Both the position numbers and the translations under genes were made by a program. The notes under the pieces are model-generated. The model saw only the letters and a program-made list of their open reading frames with translations. It was not told the DNA's origin and did no database searches. 64,000 bases of DNA. Source: a virus (taxonomy: Duplodnaviria; Heunggongvirae; Uroviricota; Caudoviricetes). Positions 31,733-56,908 of this stretch are shown piece after piece; the first letter of the stretch is position 1, and every line of letters begins with the position of its first letter. The stretch covers positions 11,541-75,540 of IMG/VR virus record IMGVR_UViG_3300037423_000296; one strand, given 5' to 3'.

Positions 31733-31978
31733 TCACCGAATGGCGACGGCAAGCTCCCGAGCGGTAGCCTTCGGCAGGCGACCCTTCGACGGAACCTCCA
31801 GACCCAGGAAGTCGCCCAGTTCGCGAGCGGTCTTCGGCTGAGTCACAAGGTAGTCAGCGATGACATCTACGGAAACCCGCCCAATGCTGCCGACAGCCTT
31901 TCCAGCCTCACGAGCGTGCTCACGAGCCGCGTTCGCGATGTTGGAGGTGTCCAGTACGAGAGTAGTGTACTTAGCCAT
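31733..31978 (-). CDS. hypothetical protein
   Basis: ORF track. Confidence 0.5.
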   Translation of the reverse strand: MAKYTTLVLDTSNIANAAREHAREAGKAVGSIGRVSVDVIADYLVTQPKTARELGDFLGLEVPSKGRLPKATARELAVAIR

Positions 31979-33943: not shown

Positions 33944-34176
33944 TCTACCTCCACCCGAGTGATTGCTCCACCGTCGTCAATGTAGAAGAAGCCCCCTTCC
34001 TTAGACCCGCCGACTGCCCGGTTACCATGCAAGTCGGGGTAGGCAAGGATGTCTTGAACAGTACAGCCGTTCTCTTTGTCCTGCTCTCGACGGGCATCCT
34101 CGAAGTTCCAAAAGGCTCGTGGTCCTGAGTTCCGACCTTCATAAATCCAAACTATAGCCAAATTGTTATGCCTCAA
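33940..34176 (-). CDS. hypothetical protein
   Basis: ORF track. Confidence 0.45.
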   Translation of the reverse strand: MRHNNLAIVWIYEGRNSGPRAFWNFEDARREQDKENGCTVQDILAYPDLHGNRAVGGSKEGGFFYIDDGGAITRVEVE

Positions 34177-34571
34177 ATCTTGTCGTTATAGAAATCATCA
34201 AGTAGTGAGTCAATGTCCATTACCTCTTCGCCCTCAGGCACCAGAACGCGGGTCTGGTCAAGGAAGAGGCTCACCTCATTGAGCGGGTACAGAACGTTCT
34301 GGTAGCCGCCGTCGAATCGTAGGTGCATGCCTACCATTAGCTGTGTGACCGAAAAACTGATTGAACCTTCACCGGCATATCCCATTGCTCGTTCACGGTT
34401 CACTACCGGCTGTACAGCTTCGCTCAGTAGCTCCCGGCCAAAGATAATGTCCGCGCCGGTCACGTTCTGTAGCCTAATCTCGAATGGTCGAGTCTCGTCG
34501 TAAATGAAATTGGTAACCATTTTCTGGTCACCGCCGACGCCTACATGACCTGTAATTGGGCGTGCAAACAT
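34173..34571 (-). CDS. SsgB/SsgA-like protein (SALP family) homolog
   Basis: recalled alignment to S. coelicolor SsgB: YDETRPFEI.. vs YDTADPYAV.., IIFGRELLSEAV vs WVFARDLLAEGL, SLFLDQTRVLVPEGEE vs SFLKRTDAAVPPGTE; ATG start chosen (track used GTG upstream). Confidence 0.6.
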   Translation of the reverse strand: MFARPITGHVGVGGDQKMVTNFIYDETRPFEIRLQNVTGADIIFGRELLSEAVQPVVNRERAMGYAGEGSISFSVTQLMVGMHLRFDGGYQNVLYPLNEVSLFLDQTRVLVPEGEEVMDIDSLLDDFYNDKI

Positions 34572-34798: not shown

Positions 34799-35686
34799 TT
34801 ACTTACTTGGTGCTACGATGCCAACACCCGAAGAGCCAGAGCAATTCCAGCCAGCGGGAAGAGGACCATTCTTGTTCTGGTCCCAGTTATTCGTGACATC
34901 AAGGCAAAAGCGCTGGTTAGCCTGAGGAGTCAGAATGCCAGACTTCTCACGAATCTCAGCAGTCTTGGCCTCAGTCAAAGCCTTTTGACGCTCAAGCTCA
35001 GCACGAGCCAAATCCTGTTGAGCAATGACAACCTTCTCAATGCTGGCCTGCGTCTTCTCGTCCAAGCCTACATTGGTAACCCGGACATTATCAACTTCAA
35101 GACCATACTTCGCAAAGTCCAAAGAAAGCTGAGTCTTGACGGCTTCAGAAATCTCATTTCCCTTTGCCTGAGCATCAGTCGGAATGTACTTGCCAGCAGC
35201 ATCACGAACTGCTGCCTCGGCACTGTTCTGCACAAGTTCCTTCTGAACCCGCTTAAAGGACTTGTAACGCTCCCACAGAGCCTTGGCTTCCTTGTCAGAA
35301 ATCTTCCAAGAGACGGTAGCAGCAATCGAACCCTGACCGCCGCCCTTGTAAGTGACATTGACGCGGTTCACGTGCACAACGTTGTCATCATTGTCGTCAC
35401 CACCATCAAGGTAGAGAGTCTGAATCTGAGTGCTGAACTCTTCGACCGAAGAAGTCGGGTTGGTCCAGTGGAATCCGTTGTCCAGCGTCTTCTGGTACTT
35501 CCCGAAGCCGGTCTGAATTCCGACAGACCGGGCTGAAACAGTGGTAGCCGAACAGATACCAAAGACCAGCAACCAGAGCATAATAACCGCTCCAGCCGCA
35601 ATCTTACCACCGGTCGTGACGAACGCAAAGCCAATTGATACGACAAATGCAATCGCCAGGATGATGGTCAGAATGATGAACAGCAA
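34799..35686 (-). CDS. SPFH/band-7 (stomatin/prohibitin/HflK-like) membrane protein
   Basis: N-terminal TM segments then band-7 core and coiled-coil (AQQDLARAELERQKALTEAK). Confidence 0.8.
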   Translation of the reverse strand: MLFIILTIILAIAFVVSIGFAFVTTGGKIAAGAVIMLWLLVFGICSATTVSARSVGIQTGFGKYQKTLDNGFHWTNPTSSVEEFSTQIQTLYLDGGDDNDDNVVHVNRVNVTYKGGGQGSIAATVSWKISDKEAKALWERYKSFKRVQKELVQNSAEAAVRDAAGKYIPTDAQAKGNEISEAVKTQLSLDFAKYGLEVDNVRVTNVGLDEKTQASIEKVVIAQQDLARAELERQKALTEAKTAEIREKSGILTPQANQRFCLDVTNNWDQNKNGPLPAGWNCSGSSGVGIVAPSK

Positions 35687-40191: not shown

Positions 40192-40217
40192 CGTTGAGAG
40201 GAAATCCGGGGTTTACG

Positions 40218-40290
40218 AGCGTATGGCCGGGTTCGAACCGGCGACATCAACGTTGGCAACGTTGCACTCTACCTACTGAGTTACATACGC
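40218..40290 (-). tRNA. tRNA-Gly (GCC)
   Basis: manual cloverleaf; loop UUGCCAA. Confidence 0.8.
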
Positions 40291-40364
40291 AAAGGCAGGA
40301 TATGTAGGCGTCATCGGTATTTAGCAATGTGAGTGATAGGTAACCGATTAACTTCGACCCTGCG

Positions 40365-40441
40365 TGGGGTGACTGACGGGGTTCGAACCCGCGTACTCTG
40401 CTTCACAGGCAGATATCTGAGACCGCTCGATTACAGCCACC
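40365..40441 (-). tRNA. tRNA-His (GUG) with G-1 and encoded CCA
   Basis: manual cloverleaf; loop CUGUGAA; 8-bp acceptor incl G-1:C73. Confidence 0.8.
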
Positions 40442-40457
40442 ATAGCGCTTACGCGCA

Positions 40458-40652
40458 TTAATCCAATGGGATTATTGTTACTTCGAATCCCTGAGCATTC
40501 AGCTTCTTCCAAGCTTCCTGTCCATGGTGATTGCAAAATACTAGCATCAATGTGCCCTTTTCTGCAACCATATACCCTCGTGCGCCGCACTTGTCACATC
40601 GTTGTGACACAGGATTGTGTTCCTGCAACTTCTCTACAACATTCATTGACAT
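40458..40652 (-). CDS. small zinc-ribbon protein
   Basis: CDKCGARG..CNHHG. Confidence 0.4.
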   Translation of the reverse strand: MSMNVVEKLQEHNPVSQRCDKCGARGYMVAEKGTLMLVFCNHHGQEAWKKLNAQGFEVTIIPLD

Positions 40653-40682
40653 AGCGCCTCCTATAGAATCGGGGGTACCGAG

Positions 40683-40753
40683 AGCGGATGACCAGAATCG
40701 AACTGGCTTCTCTAGCTTGGAAGGCTAGGGCACAACCAATATACCACATCCGC
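40683..40753 (-). tRNA. tRNA-Gly (UCC)
   Basis: manual cloverleaf; loop CUUCCAA. Confidence 0.75.
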
Positions 40754-40777
40754 AATGACATTCTTTCGAATGTCTCG

Positions 40778-40848
40778 CACTCCTACGGAGAATTGAACTC
40801 CGACTAACAACTTGAGAGGCTGTCGTACTACCCTTATACGATAGGAGC
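40778..40848 (-). tRNA. tRNA-Glu (CUC)
   Basis: manual cloverleaf; loop CUCUCAA. Confidence 0.65.
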
Positions 40849-40936
40849 AAAATCGGGTTTTTAGGAGCCCGTCTCCTGCCAGGTGTTTCACTGGCTGCCC
40901 TGATGTTTCTATTCTATCAGAGCGTTTGCACCACTG

Positions 40937-41239
40937 TCAAGCCGATGTCTCAGGGGTTGTTTGTGTTGGGGCTTTTGAGGTATCTCCCTGACCCATCTTA
41001 TACTTGATGAACTCGTCCATTAGAGCGTAGTACTTCACACGCCACTTGTCAAGCTCTTCTTCTGTCTTGGCAAGCTCTAGACGAAGTTCTTTAATGTCTG
41101 ACCGCAACTCGTTACGAAAGTCTGTTGCAGTGTCATCTTTAGATTTAGACCTGTTTAGCCAGTGCTCGATGACCTTCAGTCCGGAACCCCCGAGAAGAGC
41201 ACCAATGAGTGCTAGCCAAGCCTGATTAATTTCCGGCAT
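40937..41239 (-). CDS. membrane/coiled-coil protein
   Basis: ORF track. Confidence 0.45.
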   Translation of the reverse strand: MPEINQAWLALIGALLGGSGLKVIEHWLNRSKSKDDTATDFRNELRSDIKELRLELAKTEEELDKWRVKYYALMDEFIKYKMGQGDTSKAPTQTTPETSA

Positions 41240-41663
41240 CTTGTGTATCCATCTCCCACTTTAGTCTCAAGTGGCAAACAGCCGAGATGAGTGCCAGACC
41301 AAATGTCTGCAACCAGGATAGTCTCTGGGTTCCAAAGAGAATAACCCCGGAAAAACCATAAAAGGTCAGCAACAGAAAGGACGTGAACGTTACAATTCTG
41401 CGAACCTGCTGCCTCCTAGGCCACTTCTTACGGAGCAGAGCATACAGCATCGGTCCAGCCATCAAGATTTGCACAGTACCAAACAATATTGACAGAGTAA
41501 TTCCATCAATAATTTTCAGCTGTGAAGCCGCCCCAGGATTCGGTGTGTACCACGGTGTCATAAACCAAATCCCCGTCAAGAACAGAATGAAGGCGATGAT
41601 AGACTCGATTGCTTCCATCGGTCGCTTCGCAATGGACTTGAAAAAGGTAATTGGCTCAATCAT
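41226..41663 (-). CDS. integral membrane protein (about 4 TM)
   Basis: ORF track; hydrophobic segments. Confidence 0.5.
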   Translation of the reverse strand: MIEPITFFKSIAKRPMEAIESIIAFILFLTGIWFMTPWYTPNPGAASQLKIIDGITLSILFGTVQILMAGPMLYALLRKKWPRRQQVRRIVTFTSFLLLTFYGFSGVILFGTQRLSWLQTFGLALISAVCHLRLKWEMDTQDAGN

Positions 41664-41716
41664 GGTCTAATTATAGCCCGGAACGGATTAGGTGCCAAAA
41701 AGGTAACTCTCAGTAA

Positions 41717-41962
41717 CTAGCCCAGCAATTCTTTTGCAGTGATTTCTGGACCACAATACCGGCGATGCTTGATGTATTCACGAAAAGTCTCATCGCCGCC
41801 AATACGACCGGCCAAGATGATAAAGCTTCGTGGTTCCATCTTACTGTTAATGCAGGTCTGACACAGAAGAATCTTAGTCTTCTTCCAAAGCTTTGATTCC
41901 TTGGCATGAAGCTCAGCCTTCTGCTTGCCACAACTCTGGCACTCCATTAATTCCCCTCCCAT
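41717..41962 (-). CDS. zinc-ribbon protein
   Basis: CQSCGK..CQTC. Confidence 0.45.
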   Translation of the reverse strand: MGGELMECQSCGKQKAELHAKESKLWKKTKILLCQTCINSKMEPRSFIILAGRIGGDETFREYIKHRRYCGPEITAKELLG

Positions 41963-42213
41963 TTACGGTACGGCACCGGGTTTGTAGAGCCCTGAATGTG
42001 ACACTTGGTACCGGTCAGTCTAATTGCATCTCGCAGCTTGTATAGGTAATCAGCTAGGCCTAGTTTCTGTGGTTCGCTGAATGATTCAATATTGTCTTTG
42101 TAAACCCGCAACTCAAGGTAATCTTGGTGCTCAACCATATCAACAAAGAACCCCCGATATGGACACTTTGTTGTCTTGAAGATACGCTGAACCTCAGATG
42201 TGTAAAGGCTCAT
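41947..42213 (-). CDS. hypothetical protein
   Basis: ORF track. Confidence 0.45.
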   Translation of the reverse strand: MSLYTSEVQRIFKTTKCPYRGFFVDMVEHQDYLELRVYKDNIESFSEPQKLGLADYLYKLRDAIRLTGTKCHIQGSTNPVPYRKWEGN

Positions 42214-42548
42214 GATACCTTCCTCTCAATTGCATCCCAAATTTCTTGAGTTTTGTGTGAATTCTTGTTCTTGTCTGGCTTACCGGAGCCATTCCAGTAA
42301 ACGCCACCCCAAACGCCAAACTCGCCATTCTGGAGTCCAGCAAAAAAGCAGTCTTTAATGACTGGGCATCCGAGACACACCGCGTCGGCTGCCTTAGCAA
42401 TCTCGGTGTCAGATTCGTATTTGTCGCAGAAAATTTCCGGCTCAAGATGTTGGCAGGCAGCCAAGTGATGCCATTCGAATTCTTCCGGGTCAACTCCGAG
42501 ACTTTCTAGCAGTGAAGACATCCTTCTTGCTAACCTCCCAATTGCCAT
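42210..42548 (-). CDS. whiB: WhiB-like (Wbl) Fe-S transcription factor
   Basis: four Cys (C..C..CLGCP..C) plus GVWGG motif. Confidence 0.8.
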   Translation of the reverse strand: MAIGRLARRMSSLLESLGVDPEEFEWHHLAACQHLEPEIFCDKYESDTEIAKAADAVCLGCPVIKDCFFAGLQNGEFGVWGGVYWNGSGKPDKNKNSHKTQEIWDAIERKVS

Positions 42549-42735
42549 CCGCGTTTACCGAGACGCGCTTTTCCACGCCCCAACGTCCATCACGGAAGGC
42601 CCCGTTTACATCCTTGTAACCATAGTGGGTTGGCTTGAAGAAAACCATGTCCCATCCTTCCCAGCGAACCTTATTGCCGAGGTGACGCTGCTCCCGCATA
42701 AACTTGTGGGCAGCGGAGTAATCGAGAATCAACAT
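42490..42735 (-). CDS. hypothetical protein
   Basis: ORF track. Confidence 0.45.
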   Translation of the reverse strand: MLILDYSAAHKFMREQRHLGNKVRWEGWDMVFFKPTHYGYKDVNGAFRDGRWGVEKRVSVNADGNWEVSKKDVFTARKSRS

Positions 42736-42870
42736 TGTTAGTTAATCCTTTCATTTGTAGGAAACATCATGGTTTAATATTAACATGTGCTTAACATGAG
42801 AGTCAAGCGTTTGTTTGACGCTTTTGCCAAACAAAACCCGGCAATGTCATTTTGGTGACCATTGCCGGGG

Positions 42871-42944
42871 TGGAGCCCAATACCTGAGTCGAACAGGCAC
42901 ATCCTCATTACGAAAGAGGCGCACTGCCATTATGCTAATCGGGC
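42871..42944 (-). tRNA. tRNA-Thr (CGU), CCA encoded
   Basis: manual cloverleaf; loop UUCGUAA. Confidence 0.7.
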
Positions 42945-43056
42945 AAATTCAGCTTGACGAACTGATTACGAGATGAAGGGCCTAGAAACCTTCATCACCG
43001 GGGGTTATATGGAATACCCCTCACCAGTGTGCCGTTAGGCTTTACCTTAACACACT

Positions 43057-43131
43057 TGGAGCCCACTGTGGGAATTGAACCCACGACCTTCTCCTTACCA
43101 AGGAGACATTCTACCACTGAACCAAGCGGGC
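43057..43131 (-). tRNA. tRNA-Thr (GGU), CCA encoded
   Basis: manual cloverleaf; loop UUGGUAA. Confidence 0.8.
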
Positions 43132-43399
43132 AAATTACATAACAAAGCAATAATAGCCGGGGTTCTGTTATTTCATGCAAGCATCTGTCTCGGGTTCTTT
43201 TACGAACCCGGCGATTTCGTTGCCTCCATCGCTGCCCTCTACCCGACATCCTATGGGAATGAAACCGGATGTCTGCTTGAGGTTGCTCCCATCCTACACC
43301 CTGCTTTTTCGGTTGGGCTTAGTGGACGCACCACACGGCTTTCATTCTGGGAGCCCCGAACTTGTCCTCTGCGTTAACCGCAGCGCTCGCATCATGCTT

Positions 43400-43450
43400 T
43401 GTTAAAACTATTTTAGCAAAAGAGAGGGGACTTTGGCAAGTCCCCTCTCT
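43400..43450 (-). terminator. intrinsic terminator (agagaggggac/gtcccctctct stem, U-run)
   Basis: read in sequence downstream of 43456..43758. Confidence 0.65.
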
Positions 43451-43455
43451 TAGAC

Positions 43456-43758
43456 TCACTTCTCGTTCTTCTTGGTTGCCTCGTCTGAAGTTACAACTCC
43501 AGCGTCAGAAGCACCAACCTCACGACGGAAAGCTGCATCTGCGAAAGAGGTTCCGTTTTCACGGGCACGACGCTGCTCCAATGTCTCAACGTCTGGACGG
43601 CTCTCGTAGTTCTCAAGAGCGGCCTCGTAGTCAACGTACTCCGGGGCGACCTTACCAGCCTCAGCGGCTCGTGCAGCGGCCTCCTCGTCAACCTTGTTTC
43701 CGCGCTCCTCTGGAGCTAGAAGACCTGAGTAATCGTAGTCCTTCTTGTCATCTGCCAT
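43456..43758 (-). CDS. hypothetical acidic protein
   Basis: ORF track. Confidence 0.5.
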   Translation of the reverse strand: MADDKKDYDYSGLLAPEERGNKVDEEAAARAAEAGKVAPEYVDYEAALENYESRPDVETLEQRRARENGTSFADAAFRREVGASDAGVVTSDEATKKNEK

Positions 43759-43795
43759 ATGTGTTACACCTCCTTAAGAATAGATTGCACCCTAG

Positions 43796-44566
43796 CTAGG
43801 TACCCAATCCATTCCATTCTACCTTGAATTCGTTCCTAAAGAGAAATTCTTGTGTTTCAAGGTCAAGAATTCCCCAACTATCCCATGTTCCATCCATATC
43901 TAGACCAATTGTTTTGGTGTAATGATTGTCTGCAACAAGGTTCTCCCAGACATAGCGGGTGTGCATATGTCCGTGAAAATGCATCTCTGGCCTAACCCGG
44001 CTCAAAATCGCATCGATACGCTGCCGGTTAGCCAGACTGTCCATGTCAGGCTTGAGTCGGCCCTTCCATGGAGTCCTGTTAGAACAGTCGTGAGTGACTA
44101 AGTAGTCAATCTTACCGGTCTTGATGGAGTCAACCATCTCGTCGGTGACTTCCTCATTCCGCCACCAAGTCTGGCCCTCAACTCTCCACTGCTTATCGAC
44201 CGAGACAGCCCCAGCAACCATGAGAAACTTCTTGCCTTCCCACCCCCAATAATGGACACGTGGAGCTAGCAAGATGTGAGACCGCAGATATGCAAAGCCA
44301 TGGTAGGACTTCGGCATATTCTTTACGAACCAATCCCAGTGGTCCCAATTCTCATGGTTACCGCCGACAGCGTAAATCTTTACGCCCTCTCTTCGGGCAA
44401 CCTCGTTCAATTGGTCTAGAAAACGAATGCCATCCTCGTAGTGACTCCAGAGTCCGAAATCGCCTGTCTGGATAATCTTCTTGACCCCGGCTTTTGACGC
44501 CTCCTTCACCATGTTAATGGCGTGCTTGGTGTTGCCGTGCCAGTCGCCTGCTACGAGTACCTTCAT
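43796..44566 (-). CDS. calcineurin-like metallophosphoesterase (Ser/Thr phosphatase-like)
   Basis: GDWHG, GDFG, GNHE motifs. Confidence 0.8.
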   Translation of the reverse strand: MKVLVAGDWHGNTKHAINMVKEASKAGVKKIIQTGDFGLWSHYEDGIRFLDQLNEVARREGVKIYAVGGNHENWDHWDWFVKNMPKSYHGFAYLRSHILLAPRVHYWGWEGKKFLMVAGAVSVDKQWRVEGQTWWRNEEVTDEMVDSIKTGKIDYLVTHDCSNRTPWKGRLKPDMDSLANRQRIDAILSRVRPEMHFHGHMHTRYVWENLVADNHYTKTIGLDMDGTWDSWGILDLETQEFLFRNEFKVEWNGLGT

Positions 44567-44575
44567 TTCGCCTCC

Positions 44576-44851
44576 TTAAACCCAGTCGTTTTCGTTGATG
44601 CCTTCCTTGCCATGTTTGCACAAGTCTACATGACGACCACACCTTGAGCAAATGGCTTCCTGAGATGCGTAGTAGTGCTTAGGGGGAGCGCTAGGCGACT
44701 CCCCCATTACACTCTCAGCCTTATCAGGCTCAGTAGTCGTCATCTTCGTCGTCGTCTTCATCGTACTCTGGACACTCGTAGTACTCGTGGTCATCGTCAC
44801 CGCAATTCTCACAGTACAAAGTGTCGAAGTCGTTCTCGTCCAACTCGCCAA
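44576..44851 (-). CDS. hypothetical Cys-containing protein (true start probably internal)
   Basis: ORF track. Confidence 0.35.
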   Translation of the reverse strand: MASWTRTTSTLCTVRIAVTMTTSTTSVQSTMKTTTKMTTTEPDKAESVMGESPSAPPKHYYASQEAICSRCGRHVDLCKHGKEGINENDWV

Positions 44852-45680
44852 CTACATTGGCATAATCGGACTTGAGCAGAGGAGCGCTGACCTCTTCATC
44901 GGCAACGTCAATTACGACGTAGCGACAAACGCGAATCTTCGCCTCGTTGTGCTCAGTCGGCACAGAGACAACATCGCGAGGGTTGATAGCAACCTTCACA
45001 CGACCATTTCCGTAACCACGGGCATAGTCGAACGTTCCGGCATGCAGACCAGTCGAGCATCCCTCGGCAGGGTTGAATTCAACCTCGCTACGCGGCATCT
45101 CAACCGTGTCACCAATGCGCTGGGGAATCTGCTGGTTCTCGAACAACTCGCCATTGACGATTGCCGTACCAGAGTGCCACGACTTGTAGACCTTGCCGTT
45201 CTCATCCTCCTCAACGTAGAGACCCTTGTAGGCAACAAGGTCACCGTCAGAGGTAATCGTGATTGACGGACGAGCCTTGACCCAGCCGTAAAGCTGCTCA
45301 CGGCTGTGAGGCTCAGGGTTGAGAGACACCTTGTCTAGGAAGTTGACCAAAGGCATGAAGTCTTCGTCAGCCTCAAGCATTCGCAGAATGTGGTCAGTGA
45401 TGGCGTTGTCAACGTGGTCACCGTCGAAGTATACCTTGCCATTGGCAACGGAGATTCGGTCGGTCAGACGCTCAAAACGCTTTGCCACCTCTTCAGCCGG
45501 GTCAAAGAGTCGGACGACAGACTCATCACCGGAAGTAATCCCGGCAACAATCTGGTCCCAATTCTTGTGGTCCTGGTTTGCAACGTACATCTCACCGTCA
45601 ATAAAAGCGGTGACGCTGGACTCATTTCCAACGCTTACGAGATTATACTTGATTGTTCTTCTCCTTCTGGTAAATTGCAT
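44730..45680 (-). CDS. rIIB: rIIB-like protein (by size and position immediately downstream of rIIA-like)
   Basis: 316 aa, overlaps rIIA-like end; acidic C-terminus; no motif-level confirmation. Confidence 0.5.
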   Translation of the reverse strand: MQFTRRRRTIKYNLVSVGNESSVTAFIDGEMYVANQDHKNWDQIVAGITSGDESVVRLFDPAEEVAKRFERLTDRISVANGKVYFDGDHVDNAITDHILRMLEADEDFMPLVNFLDKVSLNPEPHSREQLYGWVKARPSITITSDGDLVAYKGLYVEEDENGKVYKSWHSGTAIVNGELFENQQIPQRIGDTVEMPRSEVEFNPAEGCSTGLHAGTFDYARGYGNGRVKVAINPRDVVSVPTEHNEAKIRVCRYVVIDVADEEVSAPLLKSDYANVVGELDENDFDTLYCENCGDDDHEYYECPEYDEDDDEDDDY

Positions 45681-47559
45681 TCATGTATAGGTAGACATGC
45701 TCTTTATTGCTACCACAGTTACCCCTGGCAAGCGGGTACTTATTGAATGGGTCGGTAATATCTTCCGACTTAATCTCTCCGTGAGCGTACTCGATTGCCC
45801 TGGCAAATTCACACGCCGCGTACCAATCCTTCATGGTGTCGGTGAGCGGTTCCTGCTTCGCATTGCATGCATTGATGAATGCGACCATCTCAGGGTCGTC
45901 AATGCGAGTGGGGTCAAGCTTCTGAGCGTTGACTCTGGAGTAGTAATCTACGTCAGTCATTCTACGCCTATCGGTCTTGGTAAGTCCAGCCTTCGCGAAC
46001 ATTACCTTGTCCTTAATCCACTGCTCCAAATCCTCAGAGTCAGGGTTGGCTTTCTTGAACCTATCAAGCTCATTCTTGTACAGAATGACGATTTCGTAAT
46101 CCTTGAGAATAGTGGTGAGGTTCTTCCACTTAATCTTCCGGCGACCCGGCACAATGTACATGACATTCTTGGTGTCATCCAAATCAGCCTTGGTTGTCGT
46201 GTATCCGTGCGCAGTCAGGGTGTTGTACTCAACAACCTTCTTGTCAGACTTGGCACGAACTAGCTTGATAGCCTTGATAGTCTCAAAGGGCACCGTCCGA
46301 ATTTCGGCCAGACGCTTCGTGTCAGGGTGCTTCTCCATCAAGAATACCTTGTACGGACGCTCGCCTGCCGGAAGATTCTCAATGTAGTGACGAATCTTCT
46401 GTCGGTAGTTCGTAGGAAGCTTCTCACCAGTAAACCCAGTGATGGTCAGATATTGAGAGAAATTCTTCCAGTCGATGTGCCTCGGGAAGGTTACTGCATG
46501 ACGCTCATGGCTGTGAGCGAAAGACATCGCTTCCGGCGCTTCACCGTAATTGAATTCCCACGTCTGCTTCAGTTCCTCACCCTTGTAGGTGTAATTGTGA
46601 GAAATCATGAATGAACGCTTGTCATGAGTCTTGAGAGCTTCAAGGTAGGTGGGCTGGGCATCAATCTCGGCCTGGATTTGGTTGGCAATTCCTGCCTTAG
46701 CCTCTGCCGACAGCTTGGAGATTGTCTCCTTGGTCTTGTCGGTGTACATCAATTCCTCGCGGTTCGGAGGAAATGCCACATCACCAATCTCGACAAAGGC
46801 TACCAAGTGATAATCGCCGTAGTGTTCGGCAAGACCGTCAGCCTTGTAGGGAACATTTCCCATAACTACGTACGATGTACCCTGACCGGGAAGAGCGACA
46901 ATGTTGTCAGTGACCCACAAAGCATCCTTGTGGTCTCCGATGAATTCCGGCTGCTTGTCGTCAACAAGAACAGTACCCGGAGTCCAGTACTTGAAGAAAT
47001 GCTCCACCCTTGCAGTGAAGTCACTAGTGTACTTGACGGGAATGATGATTTCCACACCAGACGGCTCATCGGTAATCGACGTGTCAACAATCTCCATTAC
47101 GCCAGAGCCGTACTCATCCTTGCTCACCATTACAAGAATCTTCACACCTTGGTGAATGGATACAATCTGGAATTGAGCCGTGTAAGTCAAGCCAGACTTA
47201 CTTCCAAGACCCAGCATTCCAACCTGAGAATCAGTATCTCTCTTGGTTGAATTCCAGTATTGAGAGTAGACGTTCTCAATGAAATCTACAGACATTCCAT
47301 TGCCAAAATCCCGAATTTTGAAGAACGGGCTAAGCGCGCTGGGACTGTGAATCTCGATTGGAACATTTGCCTTGCCAGCGTCAATATGAGCATCACGAGC
47401 ATTCGTGCTGTATTCTCGAATGATTGCCTTGATTGGGTCTGCGTACATATCTGTCAAGGTGCTCATGGCGAATTGTAGACTGTGCATATCCATCGTCATC
47501 TCAATACGCTTACCGCCGAGATTGCCGCTGGTTTGAATGTCTAGTGGTGCTGGACGCAT
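45643..47559 (-). CDS. rIIA: rIIA-like protein with N-terminal GHKL (HATPase_c) ATPase domain
   Basis: N box REYSTNARDA, G1 box IRDFGNGMS, G2 box GMLGLGSKSG. Confidence 0.75.
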   Translation of the reverse strand: MRPAPLDIQTSGNLGGKRIEMTMDMHSLQFAMSTLTDMYADPIKAIIREYSTNARDAHIDAGKANVPIEIHSPSALSPFFKIRDFGNGMSVDFIENVYSQYWNSTKRDTDSQVGMLGLGSKSGLTYTAQFQIVSIHQGVKILVMVSKDEYGSGVMEIVDTSITDEPSGVEIIIPVKYTSDFTARVEHFFKYWTPGTVLVDDKQPEFIGDHKDALWVTDNIVALPGQGTSYVVMGNVPYKADGLAEHYGDYHLVAFVEIGDVAFPPNREELMYTDKTKETISKLSAEAKAGIANQIQAEIDAQPTYLEALKTHDKRSFMISHNYTYKGEELKQTWEFNYGEAPEAMSFAHSHERHAVTFPRHIDWKNFSQYLTITGFTGEKLPTNYRQKIRHYIENLPAGERPYKVFLMEKHPDTKRLAEIRTVPFETIKAIKLVRAKSDKKVVEYNTLTAHGYTTTKADLDDTKNVMYIVPGRRKIKWKNLTTILKDYEIVILYKNELDRFKKANPDSEDLEQWIKDKVMFAKAGLTKTDRRRMTDVDYYSRVNAQKLDPTRIDDPEMVAFINACNAKQEPLTDTMKDWYAACEFARAIEYAHGEIKSEDITDPFNKYPLARGNCGSNKEHVYLYMNAIYQKEKNNQV

Positions 47560-47568
47560 TATGCTCCT

Positions 47569-47916
47569 TTACGCTGGTGTTTGAACTGTTGGCGGGTATG
47601 TTGTACCCAATTCAATGAGAAAGCCTTCCAATGGAAGTCCTCGCAAATTCTCGAAGACAAACCCACCAATGAAAGGCAAGTAGTTGATTCTAACAGCAGT
47701 CCATGGCTCTCCGCAACCCGGCTCACCGGAGCGCTCAGAGTATTCTGCAATCGTGATATGACCGTCTTCGCTTGGTCTGGCTCCTCTGTTACAGGCTAGA
47801 CACAGTGAGCTACTTCTGTCAATCTGAATCGTTGCCATAGTACTTTCCTTCATTCTTCTTAGCCTCAACCCAGGCTTGGTGCCGGTTCCATAGCTTCCTG
47901 GCCTCCGCAAGAACAC
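47569..47916 (-). CDS. hypothetical protein
   Basis: ORF track. Confidence 0.4.
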   Translation of the reverse strand: MFLRRPGSYGTGTKPGLRLRRMKESTMATIQIDRSSSLCLACNRGARPSEDGHITIAEYSERSGEPGCGEPWTAVRINYLPFIGGFVFENLRGLPLEGFLIELGTTYPPTVQTPA

Positions 47917-48097
47917 TGTTGTTGGTCAAGTCGTTGGAGACACCGGCCTCTTGAGGTTCCCACCAAAACCAATTCTTTTTCTCAAGAATGATGTAGTAGC
48001 AAAGAACTCCTGAGAGCTTTTCAGTAACCTCAACCTTCCAGCGGAAGTTCTTCGGCAATTCGGGGAGATTCAAGTTAGTCATTATCCTCCAATGCAA
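47819..48097 (-). CDS. hypothetical protein
   Basis: ORF track. Confidence 0.45.
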   Translation of the reverse strand: MHWRIMTNLNLPELPKNFRWKVEVTEKLSGVLCYYIILEKKNWFWWEPQEAGVSNDLTNNSVLAEARKLWNRHQAWVEAKKNEGKYYGNDSD

Positions 48098-48106
48098 AAA
48101 CCGCCA

Positions 48107-48307
48107 CTACTTAGAGTGACGGTTCTTTCGGTTCGGGTCTTTCATTAGTCTGGCAACGTGGTCAATCTCTTCCTGACCTCGCTTTGTCTTGCCCTTTGCA
48201 TGCAATAGTAGCGCAATGAGCAACGGTTCGCCAGTATGAACTAGGTCACCATCTCGAAGATAAGCTCTGTCCATCAATCGATAGCCAGGCTTGATATAAG
48301 TACTCAT
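48107..48307 (-). CDS. hypothetical protein
   Basis: ORF track. Confidence 0.45.
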   Translation of the reverse strand: MSTYIKPGYRLMDRAYLRDGDLVHTGEPLLIALLLHAKGKTKRGQEEIDHVARLMKDPNRKNRHSK

Positions 48308-48312
48308 TCTTA

Positions 48313-48342
48313 TATCATATCCTATAAGACTCTAGCCTGTCA
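48313..48342 (-). promoter_or_regulatory. promoter TTGACA-N18-TATGAT
   Basis: consensus match. Confidence 0.5.
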
Positions 48343-48423
48343 ACGTGGACGCGGCGGTGGAGGAGGTGGTGGTGCAGGTAGTTGTGACGGGTCATCATGT
48401 GGTTCCCATGGATTTCTCATAAG

Positions 48424-48506
48424 TAGCGACTGTGGGAGTCGAACCCACACCCCATTTCTGAGACTGCATTTTGAGTGCAGCGCGGCTGCCGTTACGCCAA
48501 GTCGCC
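48424..48506 (-). tRNA. tRNA-Leu (CAA), long variable arm
   Basis: manual cloverleaf; loop CUCAAAA. Confidence 0.75.
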
Positions 48507-48588
48507 AAATTCCTAGAAATCGGTCCCATTACTATTCTAGGCGGATTTCGGTTGCCACTAATGGGTTGAGCGAACCTACTTTCGTCTG

Positions 48589-48660
48589 TGGATGGTGAGG
48601 GAATCGAACCCCCGACGACTTGCGTGTCGAGCAAGCATTCTACCGCTGAATTAACCATCC
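48589..48660 (-). tRNA. tRNA with anticodon GAC (Val?) and non-canonical C33
   Basis: manual cloverleaf; loop UCGACAC; acceptor and T-arm perfect. Confidence 0.5.
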
Positions 48661-48661
48661 A

Positions 48662-48814
48662 TGGCCCCTCGTCTGGACTCGATACCAGAACCCCCGGTTT
48701 ATGAGACCGGAATGCTAACCGTGCGGGAACACGGGTTATGCCATTCGTTCAACCAGGGACTTGTACAGGTTCCCGCCCGTACAGAGGCTTAATTGAATAG
48801 AGGCATACTTACAC
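48662..48814 (-). ncRNA. unresolved tRNA-like segment (anticodon-arm-like hairpin CCGGU-CUCAUAA-ACCGG with CAU; T-like arm with 8-nt loop; no canonical acceptor)
   Basis: manual folding failed to give a canonical cloverleaf. Confidence 0.25.
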
Positions 48815-48886
48815 CATCTCGGGGTGCTCCCAGGGAATTTCGAAATCCCGGCCTTCTGTGTGTAAGACAGACGCTCTTCCTCTGAG
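48815..48886 (-). tRNA. tRNA-Val (UAC)
   Basis: manual cloverleaf; loop CUUACAC. Confidence 0.7.
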
Positions 48887-48972
48887 CTACAGGAGCTTGG
48901 AAGCGCGGTTTTAGAGCCCGCGCTACTTATCTCGTTACACTGTGTCACATTCTAGACTGCTCAACAATGCCT

Positions 48973-49046
48973 TGGCTGGGGAAGTAGGATTCGAACCCAC
49001 ACAGCAGGAACCAAAATCCTGCGTCCTGCCATTAGACGATTCCCCA
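48973..49046 (-). tRNA. tRNA-Gln (UUG), U1-A72, CCA encoded
   Basis: manual cloverleaf; loop UUUUGGU. Confidence 0.75.
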
Positions 49047-49115
49047 ATAAATGCAGAGGCTCTATTTGAGCTACACCCAACGGGGATGGGATTACACCCA
49101 CATCTCTCTGCACAG
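49047..49115 (-). pseudogene. possible tRNA remnant (acceptor/D-arm-like GGGUGUAGCUCAAAUAGAGC, no 3' half)
   Basis: manual reading. Confidence 0.25.
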
Positions 49116-49198
49116 TACGGATAACAGGAGTCGAACCTGCACGCCCTCTCGGGCACTGCGTTCTAAGCGCAGCGTGTCTGCCATTTCACCATATCCGC
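49116..49198 (-). tRNA. tRNA-Leu (UAG), long variable arm
   Basis: manual cloverleaf; loop CUUAGAA. Confidence 0.8.
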
Positions 49199-49286
49199 AT
49201 GTTCGGAGGGATGCTCAACCCTGAAGGTCTCTTGCCATTCCCTCCGAAGTACTTCTATTCTAGCACAGTCTCTCTGACTAGTGCAA

Positions 49287-49790
49287 CTACGGAAGAGCAA
49301 TCCACTTGGTGACAGTTACTTCCTTGCCGACAACCGGGAAAATCGTGCAGTTGCCGTGCCAGGGCTCAGTGCCATCGTAGGAAGAGTAGAAGTGGTCGAA
49401 CTTATAGTGCTGGTCGCCAATCTTGACGATAATCCACAACTCCTCGCCCATTCCCTCCCCACCGTAAGAATCTACCAAAGTAGCAATCCCAAGGCCGGGA
49501 AGCTCAACACCTTCCTTCGGGAAATCGTACGCCTCGTAGAAGCCTTCCGCAAGCTGGGTTGCAACATCTTCACGGTTGAACTCTTCGGGAGTCGTTGGGT
49601 AAGGAACCTTCTTAGGTTCACCCCTATAACCGCCGTAGCTGTACACCGTACGACCGCCGTACTTCTCGTTGTATTCCTTGTTATTCTTGATTGACTCGGC
49701 AATGCTAGCATCCACCTGAGACTCAGCCCAGGCATTGATGGCATTGTGAATCTGAGTGCCGGTGAAATAATTCACTTCTTGACCTTCCAA
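49287..49790 (-). CDS. paralog family C member 4 (C-terminal HYKFDHFYSSYDGTEPWHG)
   Basis: shared FFKK(T/E)G.Y.SY(D/E)G..WDG motif across four tandem ORFs. Confidence 0.5.
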   Translation of the reverse strand: MEGQEVNYFTGTQIHNAINAWAESQVDASIAESIKNNKEYNEKYGGRTVYSYGGYRGEPKKVPYPTTPEEFNREDVATQLAEGFYEAYDFPKEGVELPGLGIATLVDSYGGEGMGEELWIIVKIGDQHYKFDHFYSSYDGTEPWHGNCTIFPVVGKEVTVTKWIALP

Positions 49791-50128
49791 TCCGTAACAG
49801 TCTTCTCGAAAGGCTCGACCTCGAAAAGCTCGCCATCCCAGTTACTACCGTCATAAGACATGTAGTAACCCTCCTTCTTGAAGAACTGAGTGTTGCCTTC
49901 GCCATCCGTGACAGACCAAACCTGCCAGATGTACTCGGCAGAGCCCTCTCCACCAGTCTCACCGTCGATGTACTTGGCAAATCCGAATTCACCAAGATTC
50001 AGGTCTTCCTTGCCATAGTGAGCCTCGTGCCAGAATTCAGAGCCCTCTAGCTCGTAGTCGTCACCATCGTCAATACCCTCATCAATGAGGTTTTCGAACT
50101 GCTTTGCGGTAATCAAATCTCTACCCAT
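49772..50128 (-). CDS. paralog family C member 3
   Basis: FFKKEGYYMSYDGSNWDGE. Confidence 0.5.
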   Translation of the reverse strand: MGRDLITAKQFENLIDEGIDDGDDYELEGSEFWHEAHYGKEDLNLGEFGFAKYIDGETGGEGSAEYIWQVWSVTDGEGNTQFFKKEGYYMSYDGSNWDGELFEVEPFEKTVTDWKVKK

Positions 50129-50394
50129 TCCTCTCGTAGAACCTCGCGCTTTTCAACCTGCACGAGTGGACCGTCCCAGACAGCCCCTTCGTATGACTGG
50201 TAATAGCCGGTCTTCTTGAATGTCTGACCGTTCAAGCGGACGACCTTGTAAAGCTCGCCTTCATTGTTCTCGCCACGCTGGTTCTCTTCGACAATCTCCA
50301 CCAAGCCGTACGGAGTCGAAACTTCGTCTTCTTCGTAGTGGAGAAAGTACCAGTTAATGGCGCAATCTAGGTCTGTCAGCGTAAAGCTCATCAA
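50113..50394 (-). CDS. paralog family C member 2
   Basis: FKKTGYYQSYEGAVWDGP. Confidence 0.5.
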   Translation of the reverse strand: MMSFTLTDLDCAINWYFLHYEEDEVSTPYGLVEIVEENQRGENNEGELYKVVRLNGQTFKKTGYYQSYEGAVWDGPLVQVEKREVLREEWVEI

Positions 50395-50696
50395 TTACCC
50401 TTCGGGACAAAGACTATTACAGTCTTGGTGGTTCCGAATACCTCGGTGACTGGGCCGTCCCAACTACGGATTTCATCGTAGGAATCCATTCGACCAGTCT
50501 TCTTGAAGAACCGGTTGCCAACCTGGAAGATGACGTAAATCTCATCCTCACTCTGGAGGTAATCTCCATAGCCATCAGTTGGCCGGTTGTGAACTTCCAC
50601 AACGGTAGCCTCGGTTCCCTGAGCCAGCGGGACTACATTGTGCTTAGAGCCCAGGCCACTTCTGAACATGGCGTCCCAATTGTCTGTCGTGTACAT
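50391..50696 (-). CDS. paralog family C member 1
   Basis: FFKKTGRMDSYDEIRSWDGP. Confidence 0.5.
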   Translation of the reverse strand: MYTTDNWDAMFRSGLGSKHNVVPLAQGTEATVVEVHNRPTDGYGDYLQSEDEIYVIFQVGNRFFKKTGRMDSYDEIRSWDGPVTEVFGTTKTVIVFVPKGN

Positions 50697-50704
50697 TTTC
50701 TCCC

Positions 50705-51451: not shown

Positions 51452-51465
51452 TTCTCTCCTAACTC

Positions 51466-51684
51466 TTAGATAAGACCCTTGGACTTTGCTGCAATTGCGG
51501 CGGCACTAAGAGCGCAAGCGCTATTCTCAGAACCCCAGCAACGAGCCTTCTTCGTAACCTTAATGCCATCACGAATTGCATCTGCAAGACTGTAGGGCTT
51601 GGTAAGAAGGTCAAGCTCGATGTTTGCCAGGTCGGCCTTCATAAGCTCAGAAAGCTCATCAGCCTTTGTCTCTCTAGTAATCAA
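51466..51684 (-). CDS. hypothetical protein
   Basis: ORF track. Confidence 0.45.
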   Translation of the reverse strand: MITRETKADELSELMKADLANIELDLLTKPYSLADAIRDGIKVTKKARCWGSENSACALSAAAIAAKSKGLI

Positions 51685-51685
51685 T

Positions 51686-52681: not shown

Positions 52682-52704
52682 TACTAATCTTTCGGTCAAT
52701 GAAG

Positions 52705-53229: not shown

Positions 53230-53310
53230 AAATGCTACCATTCTGAGTTTCACAGTGTTTGGTAGCAGGAGTAAACTGAGCTTGATATTATCTCCTCAGC
53301 AATTACCCCT

Positions 53311-56906: not shown

Positions 56907-56908
56907 AG

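What the first reader, a model, noticed from the sequence alone, without database searches (positions are those of the whole stretch)
42210..42548. WhiB-like regulator alongside SsgB-like and Lsr2 proteins: a trio of host developmental and nucleoid regulator mimics
The four-Cys cluster plus GVWGG is diagnostic of Wbl proteins. Together with SsgB-like and two Lsr2-type proteins, the phage carries homologues of three actinobacterial regulatory systems: septation, redox/developmental transcription, and xenogeneic silencing.
Basis: established knowledge. Interest (0 to 1): 0.6.

Follow-up and report, generated by a model that had tools for sequence, protein, structure and literature searches.

The report
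Phage WhiB-like iron-sulfur transcription factor
The flagged gene is a genuine WhiB-like regulator, but it is the ordinary, already-annotated WhiB gene carried by a whole lineage of large Streptomyces phages; the only uncommon neighbour is a divergent SsgA/SsgB-like cell-division gene.

Summary
The ORF at 42210..42548 (-) is a real Wbl (WhiB-like) gene. It scores 46.1 bits against Pfam PF02467 (cutoff 23.6). It has the four canonical Cys and GVWGG. Its AF2 model (pLDDT 90) matches only solved Wbl structures. The true start is probably 42521, giving 103 aa. A fifth Cys is not conserved.

The window is a tRNA-rich phage (32 tRNAs by ARAGORN, plus a tmRNA) related to Streptomyces phages such as Comrade and Francob (Stanwilliamsviridae for Comrade). 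Those phages carry a 60-65% identical, syntenic gene annotated "WhiB family transcription factor". The gene sits in a four-gene unit behind a conserved sigma-70-type extended -10 promoter.

It belongs to a Wbl subfamily seen here only in phages and unplaced metagenome contigs, with a conserved Lys-rich C-terminal tail. It is no closer to developmental WhiB than to WhiB1 or WhiB3.

The SsgA-like protein (34173..34571) is real but divergent and rare in phages. One canonical Lsr2 is present (62317..62673). The other "Lsr2" candidates carry only an RGR-type motif.

The three gene types lie in separate units with different composition, so "trio" means co-residence, not a system. Phage WhiB, Lsr2 and SsgA homologues are already published. 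Verdict: a new member of a known kind, of low-to-moderate interest.

The parts
42210..42521 (-). WhiB-like (Wbl) gene, probable CDS of 103 aa. The longest ORF, and the finding's coordinates, run to 42548.
   Evidence: Pfam PF02467 scores 46.1 bits. There are 82 homologues, mostly 102-104 aa. The alignment shows invariant C23, C49, C52 and C58, with G69, G72 and G73 of GVWGG invariant and W71 at least 90% conserved. The AF2 model has pLDDT 90.3 and the top 11 Foldseek PDB hits are all Wbl proteins. A GGGAGG lies 12 nt upstream of ATG 42521.
42490..42735 (-). First gene of the unit (81 aa, function unknown). It overlaps the WhiB start by 32 nt.
   Evidence: PHROG 10869 at 1.2e-27. The same gene precedes WhiB in Comrade, Francob and L006.
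41947..42213 (-). Gene immediately downstream (88 aa, unknown function). Its ATG overlaps the WhiB stop (ATGA).
   Evidence: ORF list and sequence. Genes of similar size follow WhiB in Comrade, Francob, L002 and L006.
41717..41962 (-). Fourth gene of the unit (81 aa) with CxxC...CxxC, probably a zinc ribbon.
   Evidence: PHROG 11425 at 1.8e-19. Sequence. A further promoter-like site at 41698..41670 follows it.
42777..42806 (-). Sigma-70-type promoter-like site with an extended -10: TTGACT, 18-nt spacer, TAATAT, with TG two bases before the -10.
   Evidence: Found by the consensus scan. TTGAC and TGTTAA.AT are invariant in the aligned upstream regions of the window, L006, L002, Comrade and Francob. 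The pattern TTGACN{15,18}TGNTANNAT occurs 6 times, all on the minus strand, against 0.13 expected.
42829..42869 (-). Terminator-like hairpin plus U-tract, directly after tRNA-Thr(cgt).
   Evidence: Fold energy is -20.5 kcal/mol with z -3.35, followed by UUUUGUUU. The hairpin sequence recurs in L006.
34173..34571 (-). Divergent SsgA-like protein (SALP), 132 aa.
   Evidence: Pfam PF04686 scores 25.1 bits against a cutoff of 25. Eight homologues all start at MFA. The profile hits SsgB 3cm1 at 1.4e-5. The AF2 model has pLDDT 79.9, and the top seven Foldseek hits are SsgB structures with TM 0.66-0.73.
34799..35686 (-). SPFH/Band-7 membrane protein, upstream neighbour of the SsgA-like gene (adjacent here and in L002 and L008; one 161-162 aa gene intervenes in L004, L006 and L007).
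   Evidence: Pfam PF01145 scores 103 bits. The pairing is conserved in L002, L004, L006, L007 and L008 and absent from Francob.
62317..62673 (+). Canonical Lsr2 with a dimerisation domain and an RGR DNA-binding domain, 118 aa.
   Evidence: Pfam PF11774 scores 35.5 bits and PF23359 scores 53.1 bits, both above their cutoffs. PHROG 1223 at 9e-24.
30998..31507 (-). 169-aa protein with an N-terminal GRGR motif resembling the Lsr2 DNA-binding domain, plus an unrelated C-terminal domain.
   Evidence: PHROG 6269 at 4e-14. The N-terminal part (residues 27-90 of the 193-aa ORF) is homologous to the gene annotated 'Lsr2-like DNA bridging protein' in Francob and four related phages. No Pfam Lsr2 hit. hhalign aligns only 29 columns at probability 3%. 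The start is set by homologue P0241.
31733..31978 (-). 81-aa protein with a sub-threshold Lsr2 DNA-binding-like segment.
   Evidence: PF23359 scores 23 bits against a cutoff of 26.9. The gene is conserved in L004-L008.

Best explanation
The gene encodes a small monomeric Wbl protein. It is the orthologue of the 'WhiB family transcription factor' found in Streptomyces phages such as Comrade and Francob (Stanwilliamsviridae for Comrade).

Shown here:
- It has the Wbl sequence signature and the Wbl fold.
- It keeps three of the four 'aromatic patch' residues that Wbl proteins use to grip region 4 of the principal sigma factor.
- It is the second gene of a four-gene unit behind a conserved host-type promoter with an extended -10.
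- It belongs to a subfamily found here only in phages and unplaced metagenome contigs, with its own conserved Lys-rich C-terminal tail.

Inferred:
- It is made early by unmodified host RNA polymerase.
- It assembles a [4Fe-4S] cluster on Cys23, 49, 52 and 58.
- It docks on region 4 of the host principal sigma factor (HrdB in Streptomyces).
- From there it re-targets the holoenzyme, probably to phage promoters through its own C-terminal tail. It also displaces host Wbl regulators from the same sigma surface.

On this reading it is a long-resident phage transcription factor rather than a recent copy of the host developmental WhiB.
For: Family membership:
- Pfam scores 46.1 bits against a 23.6 cutoff.
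- PDB sequence hits are WhiB1 at 8e-9 and S. venezuelae WhiB at 1e-8, with the Cys and GVWGG aligned.
- The AF2 model has pLDDT 90.3, and the 11 best Foldseek PDB hits are all Wbl proteins at probability 0.96 or higher.

Sigma binding:
- AP1 (W17), AP2 (F31) and AP4 (W71) are present.
- PMC13013590 reports that three tested phage Wbls bind sigma-A region 4 in a His516-dependent way. It also reports that 98.7% of 995 Wbls keep at least two patch residues.

Long residence in the phage lineage:
- 60-65% identical genes are annotated as WhiB in 38 of the 139 matching phage records (127 of the 139 are Streptomyces phage records).
- The gene order rIIA, rIIB, phosphoesterase, tRNA, small gene, WhiB, small genes matches Comrade. 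Francob and L006 share the immediate neighbours, and L002 also the phosphoesterase.
- GC3 is 0.49, like the phage backbone.

Subfamily restricted to phages and metagenome contigs:
- The tail motifs gave no confirmed relative in 185,579 species genomes.
- Matches to solved Wbls all end at profile positions 73-76.
- Y74, G79, N86, H88 and K89 are 71-78% conserved across 150 representative clusters.

Early, host-type expression:
- The promoter is conserved across five phages.
- An upstream terminator hairpin is present.
- Six such promoters occur, all on the coding strand, against 0.13 expected.
Against: - No experiment bears on this protein or on any member of its subfamily. Cluster binding, sigma binding and targets are all inferred.
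- AP3, which is essential in WhiB1, is Cys here rather than Phe or Tyr. This could weaken sigma binding.
- The tail is Lys-rich but lacks the Arg-rich stretch or AT-hook of host Wbls, so DNA contact is a guess.
- The only phage Wbl studied in vivo, WhiBTM4, acts as an inhibitor of host whiB2 rather than as an activator of phage genes (cited in PMC7650747 and PMC8612146).
- 'Early' rests on promoter resemblance alone.
Confidence: 0.55

Rival explanations
1. It is a host-mimic or dominant-negative Wbl. It copies the role of the developmental WhiB (WhiB2 class). It either partners with host WhiA or competes with host WhiB on sigma HrdB. Either way it blocks or mistimes sporulation septation, as WhiBTM4 does to whiB2 in mycobacteria. 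It would act together with the SsgA-like protein.
For: - The family profile aligns with S. venezuelae WhiB from residue 1 to 74, including the N-terminal MxxLxxEL..D..E..W segment.
- WhiBTM4 is a precedent, and the published hypothesis holds that actinophages manipulate development with whiB, ssgA, parB and ftsK homologues.
- A SALP with an SsgB-like fold is on the same genome.
- Infection of S. venezuelae by phage Alderaan, which encodes a WhiB-like regulator, represses whi genes early (PMC10117723).
Against: - Scores against WhiB, WhiB1 and WhiB3 are indistinguishable, at 4.3e-9 to 1.1e-8.
- The C-terminal tail differs from all solved Wbls, and its motifs gave no confirmed relative in the cellular genomes scanned.
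- The SsgA-like gene is absent from Francob, a relative that keeps this WhiB. It had no tblastn match at E<=1e-5 in 50,697 phage records. The two are therefore not an obligate pair.
- The two genes lie in different transcription units 8 kb apart.
Confidence: 0.3
2. It is mainly a superinfection-exclusion or defence-related factor. Its activity changes the host envelope or host gene expression so that other phages are excluded. It may also be the trigger sensed by host or prophage defences.
For: - WhiBTM4 expression gave a TM4-resistant phenotype.
- The WhiB of phage Tweety is the target of a prophage-mediated defence. Both points are summarised in PMC8612146.
Against: - The syntenic position in Comrade and Francob, and in metagenome relatives for the flanking genes, fits a function in the phage's own cycle.
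- The 5 kb around the gene shows rIIA/rIIB-like genes but no recognisable defence or anti-defence genes by Pfam or PHROG. Most neighbours have unknown function, and PADLOC was not run.
Confidence: 0.1
3. It is a decaying or non-functional remnant, or a chance ORF.
For: - One aromatic-patch position (AP3) is substituted by Cys.
- The longest-ORF start is unsupported by homologues.
Against: - 17 columns are invariant across 32 homologues down to 47% identity, including all four ligand Cys.
- 149 representative clusters match at E<=1e-10.
- The structure model is high-confidence.
- The promoter and ribosome-binding context are conserved.
Confidence: 0.02

Closest known systems
'WhiB family transcription factor' of Streptomyces phages such as Comrade gp170, Francob gp174, Moab, Gilson and BillNye (Comrade: Stanwilliamsviridae, Gilsonvirus)
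   Same: - It is 60-65% identical over the whole length.
- It has the same length of about 102-104 aa.
- It has the same flanking genes, and in Comrade the same position after rIIA, rIIB, phosphoesterase and a tRNA.
- It has the same conserved promoter.
   Different: - There is no nucleotide-level match to any GenBank phage.
- The closest proteins, at 84-85% identity, come from metagenomes.
- The AP3 residue is Cys instead of Phe or Tyr.
- These orthologues are annotated but, as far as the papers read here show, uncharacterised.
Streptomyces venezuelae WhiB (PDB 8DY7/8DY9) and M. tuberculosis WhiB1 (PDB 6ONO/5OAY)
   Same: - The four Cys ligands, the GVWGG turn and the helical fold around the cluster pocket are shared.
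- The aromatic residues AP1, AP2 and AP4 that contact sigma-A region 4 are shared.
   Different: - Identity is only about 30%.
- The phage protein is no closer to one host class than to another.
- The C-terminal 27-30 residues (YWNGSGKPDKNKNSHKT plus a helix) replace the host C-terminal tail and have no solved counterpart.
- The motifs of this subfamily were not found in 185,579 species genomes.
WhiBTM4 of mycobacteriophage TM4 (Rybniker et al. 2010, as cited in PMC7650747 and PMC8612146)
   Same: It is a phage-encoded Wbl. It is the only phage Wbl for which the papers read here report an in vivo function.
   Different: - It comes from a different phage lineage and a different host genus.
- Its sequence relationship to the window protein was not tested here.
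- Its reported activity (repression of host whiB2 and superinfection exclusion) cannot be assumed for this protein.
SsgB of Streptomyces coelicolor and Thermobifida fusca (PDB 6SLC, 6SUJ, 3CM1), compared with the neighbouring SsgA-like gene
   Same: - The whole-domain fold matches, with TM 0.66-0.73.
- The Pfam SsgA match covers the full domain.
   Different: - Identity is only 18-23%.
- The Pfam score sits at the threshold.
- There is a distinctive invariant C-terminus, LDDFYND[KR]I.
- Orthology to SsgB rather than to another SALP is not established.

Membership tests
Wbl (WhiB-like) family, Pfam PF02467 | Profile score above the curated threshold | tested here: met
   46.1 bits against a cutoff of 23.6, E 7.3e-12. 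PHROG 472 at 1e-18.
Wbl (WhiB-like) family, Pfam PF02467 | Four conserved Cys in the pattern C-x(n)-C-x2-C-x5-C that ligate a [4Fe-4S] cluster | tested here: met
   C23, C49, C52 and C58 (103-aa numbering) align with the WhiB1 ligands. They are invariant in 32 homologues and 85-97% conserved in 150 representatives. Actual cluster binding cannot be tested here.
Wbl (WhiB-like) family, Pfam PF02467 | G[V/I]WGG beta-turn | tested here: met
   GVWGG is at residues 69-73. The model shows a hairpin at 68-77.
Wbl (WhiB-like) family, Pfam PF02467 | Wbl fold | tested here: met
   The AF2 model has pLDDT 90.3. The 11 best Foldseek hits are WhiB7, WhiB, WhiB1, WhiB3 and WhiB6, with target-normalised TM 0.55-0.72. 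Foldseek E-values are only 5e-3 to 0.15, and the next hits have probability 0.02 or less.
Wbl (WhiB-like) family, Pfam PF02467 | Aromatic patch for sigma-A region 4 binding: at least two of AP1-4 and at least one of AP2-3 (PMC13013590) | tested here: met
   AP1 is W17, AP2 is F31 and AP4 is W71. AP3 is C32 here, but Phe in 76% of representatives. Physical binding to sigma was not tested.
Wbl (WhiB-like) family, Pfam PF02467 | Basic C-terminal DNA-contacting tail (Arg-rich, or an AT-hook as in WhiB7) | tested here: inconclusive
   The tail is conserved and Lys-rich (GKPDKNKNSHKT) but contains no Arg. It aligns with no solved Wbl. That host tails are Arg-rich rests on established knowledge of the family.
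Developmental WhiB / WhiB2 subfamily | Specifically closer to WhiB/WhiB2 than to other Wbl classes | tested here: not met
   The family profile scores S. venezuelae WhiB at 4.3e-9, WhiB1 at 4.8e-9 and WhiB3 at 7.5e-9. The single sequence scores WhiB1 at 8.2e-9 and WhiB at 9.7e-9.
SsgA-like proteins (SALP), Pfam PF04686, for 34173..34571 | Profile score above threshold, and an SsgB-type fold | tested here: met
   25.1 bits against a cutoff of 25, which is borderline. The profile hits PDB SsgB at 1.4e-5. The top seven Foldseek hits are SsgB structures at E 2e-7 to 2e-5.
SsgB orthologue, for 34173..34571 | Orthology to SsgB, the FtsZ-recruiting SALP, rather than membership of the SALP family in general | tested here: inconclusive
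   Identity to the solved SsgB structures is 18-23%. No other SALP has a solved structure to compare against, and no phylogeny was made.
Lsr2, for 62317..62673 | N-terminal dimerisation domain plus C-terminal DNA-binding domain with an RGR motif | tested here: met
   PF11774 scores 35.5 bits (cutoff 29.6) and PF23359 scores 53.1 bits (cutoff 26.9). ARGRIP is present.
Lsr2, for 30998..31507 and 31733..31978 | Either Lsr2 Pfam domain scoring above its threshold | tested here: not met
   30998..31507 has no Pfam Lsr2 hit even at E<=10. hhalign gives 29 columns at probability 3%, and the only support is PHROG 6269. 31733..31978 scores 23 bits, below 26.9.

The most novel reading that the evidence does not exclude
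The gene represents a Wbl subfamily seen here only in phages and unplaced metagenome contigs. Its conserved C-terminal module (Y-[WL]-x(2-4)-G-x(6)-N-x-H-K-T-x3-W plus a helix) would be a new RNAP- or DNA-docking device.

That would make it a core sigma-appropriation factor of large, probably lytic, Streptomyces phages. It would be an actinophage counterpart of T4 AsiA/MotA, built on an Fe-S sensor, rather than a borrowed developmental regulator.

In this lineage it would coexist with a phage SsgB-fold protein paired with an SPFH protein. Those two could reposition host FtsZ or septa in infected hyphae.
Probability: 0.3. Interest if true: 0.55.

Novelty: new member of a known kind. Interest (0 to 1): 0.25.

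Why it matters
WhiB-like proteins are the commonest regulators in actinophages, present in 24% of genomes (PMC8612146). Among the papers read here, an in vivo function is reported only for WhiBTM4. This gene adds one more member and does not open a new question.

Three modest points emerge:
- The whole Comrade/Francob-like lineage keeps this Wbl behind a conserved host-type promoter. That makes the cultured relatives good systems for asking what a phage Wbl does.
- The subfamily has its own conserved C-terminal tail, which was not found in cellular genomes.
- This uncultured lineage also carries a rare SsgB-fold protein next to an SPFH protein. That pair is a concrete candidate for phage interference with hyphal septation.

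Tried and rejected
- Megablast of 41-46 kb against 50,697 phage records gave no match. The relationship to known phages is visible only at protein level.
- tblastn of the SsgA-like protein against phages gave nothing at E<=1e-5. At E<=5, the 15 rows shown of 23 matching records were all spurious capsid hits in Aeromonas and Stenotrophomonas phages at E 2-3. One Streptomyces record among the 23 was not inspected. There was no PHROG match and no confirmed relative in IMG/VR by pattern scan.
- NCBIfam gave no hit for any of the five regulators.
- A pattern scan of 185,579 species genomes for the WhiB-tail motifs found no confirmed relative. This gave no host or prophage clue. The scan only sees sequences that carry those motifs.
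- A second Wbl gene in the window was sought with the family HMM over all six-frame ORFs. None was found.
- The idea that the fifth Cys is an alternative ligand was rejected. Among the 32 aligned homologues it occurs only in this protein and its closest relative. The position is Phe in 76% of 150 representative clusters.
- Classing 30998..31507 as a true Lsr2 was rejected. It has no dimerisation domain, and only a 29-column RGR-motif alignment at probability 3%.
- I could not read model coordinates, so the Cys geometry and the position of the tail relative to the sigma-binding face were not examined.
Full report
**What is at the coordinates**

The minus strand of 42210..42548 carries a 112-aa ORF. 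It scores 46.1 bits (E 7.3e-12) against Pfam PF02467 Whib, whose curated cutoff is 23.6. It scores 1e-18 against PHROG 472 'WhiB transcriptional factor'.

Against the PDB sequence set, the best matches are M. tuberculosis WhiB1 (8e-9) and S. venezuelae WhiB (1e-8). WhiB4, WhiB7 and WhiB3 follow. In these alignments Cys32, 58, 61 and 67 of the long ORF fall on the four cluster ligands, and GVWGG falls on the beta-turn.

Two corrections apply.
- There is a fifth Cys. It sits at the position of WhiB1 F18 and is Phe or Tyr in nearly all relatives.
- The real start is most likely the second ATG at 42521, giving 103 aa. Homologues are mostly 102-104 aa and cover about 91% of the long ORF. The Comrade orthologue is 309 nt. 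GGGAGG lies 12 nt upstream of that ATG, whereas the first ATG has no such site.

**What the window is**

- The window has 50.6% GC, 32 tRNA genes by ARAGORN and a tmRNA.
- It has no nucleotide-level match among 50,697 GenBank phage records.
- Its proteins match large Streptomyces phages: Comrade, Francob, Moab, Gilson, BillNye, Jay2Jay and Mildred21. Comrade is classified in Stanwilliamsviridae.
- A 35-kb JGI metagenome contig (L008) is 98-99% identical over most of 20.5-41.3 kb of the window, and 92% over one 2-kb stretch.

**Orthology and context**

tblastn finds the WhiB-like protein in 139 phage records, 127 of them Streptomyces phages. Identity reaches 65%, and the matching genes shown are annotated 'WhiB family transcription factor'.

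In Comrade the gene order is rIIA, rIIB, a small gene, a metallophosphoesterase, a hypothetical gene, a tRNA, a small gene, WhiB, then small genes. The window has the same order on its minus strand:
- rIIA at 45643..47559
- rIIB at 44730..45680
- phosphoesterase at 43796..44566
- two tRNA-Thr genes
- an 81-aa gene at 42490..42735
- WhiB
- genes at 41947..42213 and 41717..41962

Francob shares the tRNA, small gene, WhiB and following small genes. Metagenome contig L006 shares the genes flanking WhiB, and L002 also the phosphoesterase upstream.

The four small genes overlap one another by 32, 4 and 16 nt, so they form one unit. Upstream of it, just after tRNA-Thr, lies a hairpin of -20.5 kcal/mol (z -3.35) followed by UUUUGUUU.

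Next comes a promoter-like site: TTGACT, an 18-nt spacer, TAATAT, with TG two bases before the -10 hexamer (42806..42777). The TTGAC and TGTTAA.AT blocks are invariant in the aligned upstream regions of the window, L006, L002, Comrade and Francob. This holds even though the proteins are only 60-85% identical.

The pattern TTGACN{15,18}TGNTANNAT occurs six times in the window, always on the coding strand, against 0.13 expected. I infer that this phage uses host-type principal-sigma promoters and that the WhiB unit is one of them, probably early. The timing is an inference.

**The protein**

Thirty-two homologues, down to 47% identity, share 17 invariant columns. These include W17, C23, Y35, E36, D46, C49, C52, P53 and C58, the GVWGG glycines, and Y75, G80, D83, H89 and K90.

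The AF2 model built on this alignment has mean pLDDT 90.3. Its 11 best Foldseek matches in the PDB are all Wbl proteins: WhiB7, S. venezuelae WhiB, WhiB1, WhiB3 and WhiB6. Their probability is 0.96 or higher, although the Foldseek E-values themselves are only 5e-3 to 0.15. The next hits are noise.

PMC13013590 defines an 'aromatic patch' through which Wbls bind region 4 of the principal sigma factor. In WhiB1 the residues are AP1 W3, AP2-3 F17/F18 and AP4 W60. The paper reports that three phage Wbls bind sigma-A region 4 in a His516-dependent way. By the WhiB1 alignment, the window protein has AP1 W17, AP2 F31 and AP4 W71, with Cys at AP3. This meets that paper's criterion.

**A phage-specific subfamily**

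- The family profile matches S. venezuelae WhiB, WhiB1 and WhiB3 equally well, at 4e-9 to 1e-8.
- Every match stops at profile position 73-76.
- The last 27-30 residues (VYWNGSGKPDKNKNSHKT followed by a helix) therefore have no solved counterpart.
- An exhaustive HMMER search of 1.84 billion representative proteins found 4461 Wbls at E<=1e-3. Only 149 reached E<=1e-10, and most of those align through the tail.
- Across the top 150, Y74, G79, N86, H88 and K89 are 71-78% conserved.
- A scan of 185,579 bacterial and archaeal species genomes for the two tail motifs found no confirmed relative.
- The gene's GC3 (0.49) matches the phage backbone.

Together these results point to a long-resident, phage-adapted Wbl rather than a recently captured host developmental gene.

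**The companion genes**

*SsgA-like protein.* The protein at 34173..34571 is 132 aa, with its start fixed by eight homologues.
- It sits at the Pfam threshold, 25.1 bits against 25.
- Its family profile hits SsgB 3cm1 at 1.4e-5.
- Its model (pLDDT 79.9) matches the SsgB structures first, with TM 0.66-0.73.
- It is rare. It has no tblastn match at E<=1e-5 in GenBank phages, no PHROG, no confirmed IMG/VR relative, and only eight clusters among 5.8 billion proteins.
- It follows an SPFH/Band-7 gene in five metagenome contigs (directly in L002 and L008; after one intervening gene in L004, L006 and L007), and both genes are missing from Francob.

*Lsr2 candidates.*
- A canonical two-domain Lsr2 lies at 62317..62673 on the opposite strand. 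Its GC3 is 0.73 and its phage relatives are only about 32-34% identical.
- The 169-aa protein at 30998..31507 is homologous, through its N-terminal part, to the gene annotated 'Lsr2-like DNA bridging protein' in Francob and four related phages. It matches PHROG 6269.
- That protein shares only a GRGR-centred 29-residue stretch with Lsr2, at hhalign probability 3%. It has no dimerisation domain.
- The 81-aa protein at 31733..31978 is below the Pfam threshold.

**Comparison with the literature**

- WhiB genes occur in 24% of actinophage genomes and Lsr2 in 11%. The two distributions show no link (PMC8612146).
- Hardy et al. 2020 reported whiB, ssgA and Lsr2 homologues in Streptomyces phages and proposed manipulation of host development (PMC7650747).
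- Phages Ankus and Naboo, which match window proteins at the protein level, are among four phages reported to carry both WhiB-like and Lsr2-like genes.
- Luthe et al. 2023 restated the hypothesis (PMC10117723).

What is new is one more, uncultured, member, plus an uncommon SALP/SPFH pair.

**Mechanism and its rivals**

My preferred reading (confidence about 0.55) is as follows. The protein is made early from a host-type promoter. It binds a [4Fe-4S] cluster and docks on region 4 of the host principal sigma factor. It then re-targets RNA polymerase through its own tail, while excluding host Wbls from the same surface.

The main rival (about 0.3) is the TM4-style model, in which the protein is a dominant-negative or mimic of the developmental WhiB. 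An exclusion or defence role (about 0.1) and a non-functional gene (about 0.02) follow.

Only family membership, fold, conservation, synteny and promoter conservation are shown. Cluster binding, sigma binding, timing and targets are all inferred.

**Verdict**

This is a new member of a known kind, with interest 0.25.

Noticed in passing
window 18533..18586 (-): There is an Rfam Pistol ribozyme (RF02679) match at 37.9 bits (gathering score 34.5, E 0.0024). It lies about 290 nt from tRNA-Asp 18170..18241, in a region with few convincing ORFs.
   Followed up: no
window ~8400..14400 and ~18000..23000: GC is higher here (0.53-0.56 against about 0.48) and the space between small minus-strand genes is long. 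A 58-nt element with an internal hairpin is repeated at 11200..11257 and 11764..11821 (81% identity). It overlaps the first codons of the long ORF calls of two small minus-strand genes. Three of the long ORF calls in this region (including those two) share the peptide 'SQHRKG' near their called start, which points to a recurring 5' element.
   Followed up: partly
window 34799..35686 (-) with 34173..34571 (-): An SPFH/Band-7 protein lies just upstream of the SsgA-like gene (adjacent in the window, L002 and L008; one gene between them in L004, L006 and L007). The pairing is conserved in five metagenome contigs and absent from Streptomyces phage Francob. It may be a two-gene membrane/septation module.
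   Followed up: partly
window 63439..63939 (-): This protein has a strong Ro60-type vWA domain (PF25045, 153 bits). Any TROVE part would lie beyond the window end. A phage Ro60/Rsr-like protein next to the tRNA cluster suggests an RNA-quality-control module, possibly with a Y RNA.
   Followed up: no
window 54712..55109 (-) and 40217..62166: The phage carries a tmRNA (96 bits) with tag peptide ATDNIDAEYEALCAEYDLASV. It also carries 32 tRNAs by ARAGORN (Rfam adds one more at 53037..53102), nearly all between 40 and 62 kb and all on the minus strand. A CCA-adding/poly(A) polymerase-type enzyme is at 24657..25400.
   Followed up: no
window 62317..62673 (+), 30998..31507 (-), 31733..31978 (-): The three proteins with Lsr2 or RGR motifs have clearly higher GC3 (0.66-0.73) than the WhiB gene (0.49) and neighbouring backbone genes (0.49-0.62). 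This is consistent with later acquisition from a high-GC source. The canonical Lsr2 is a lone plus-strand gene among minus-strand genes and tRNAs.
   Followed up: partly
window 57057..58307 (-): This 416-aa protein has an N-terminal hydrophobic segment and a C-terminal glycoside hydrolase family 12 domain (39 bits). That is an unusual enzyme for a phage non-structural region.
   Followed up: no
window 40458..40652 (-): A small Cys-rich ORF (64 aa) lies between tRNA genes. The equivalent gene in the related contigs L002, L006 and L008 carries Pfam DUF7455.
   Followed up: no
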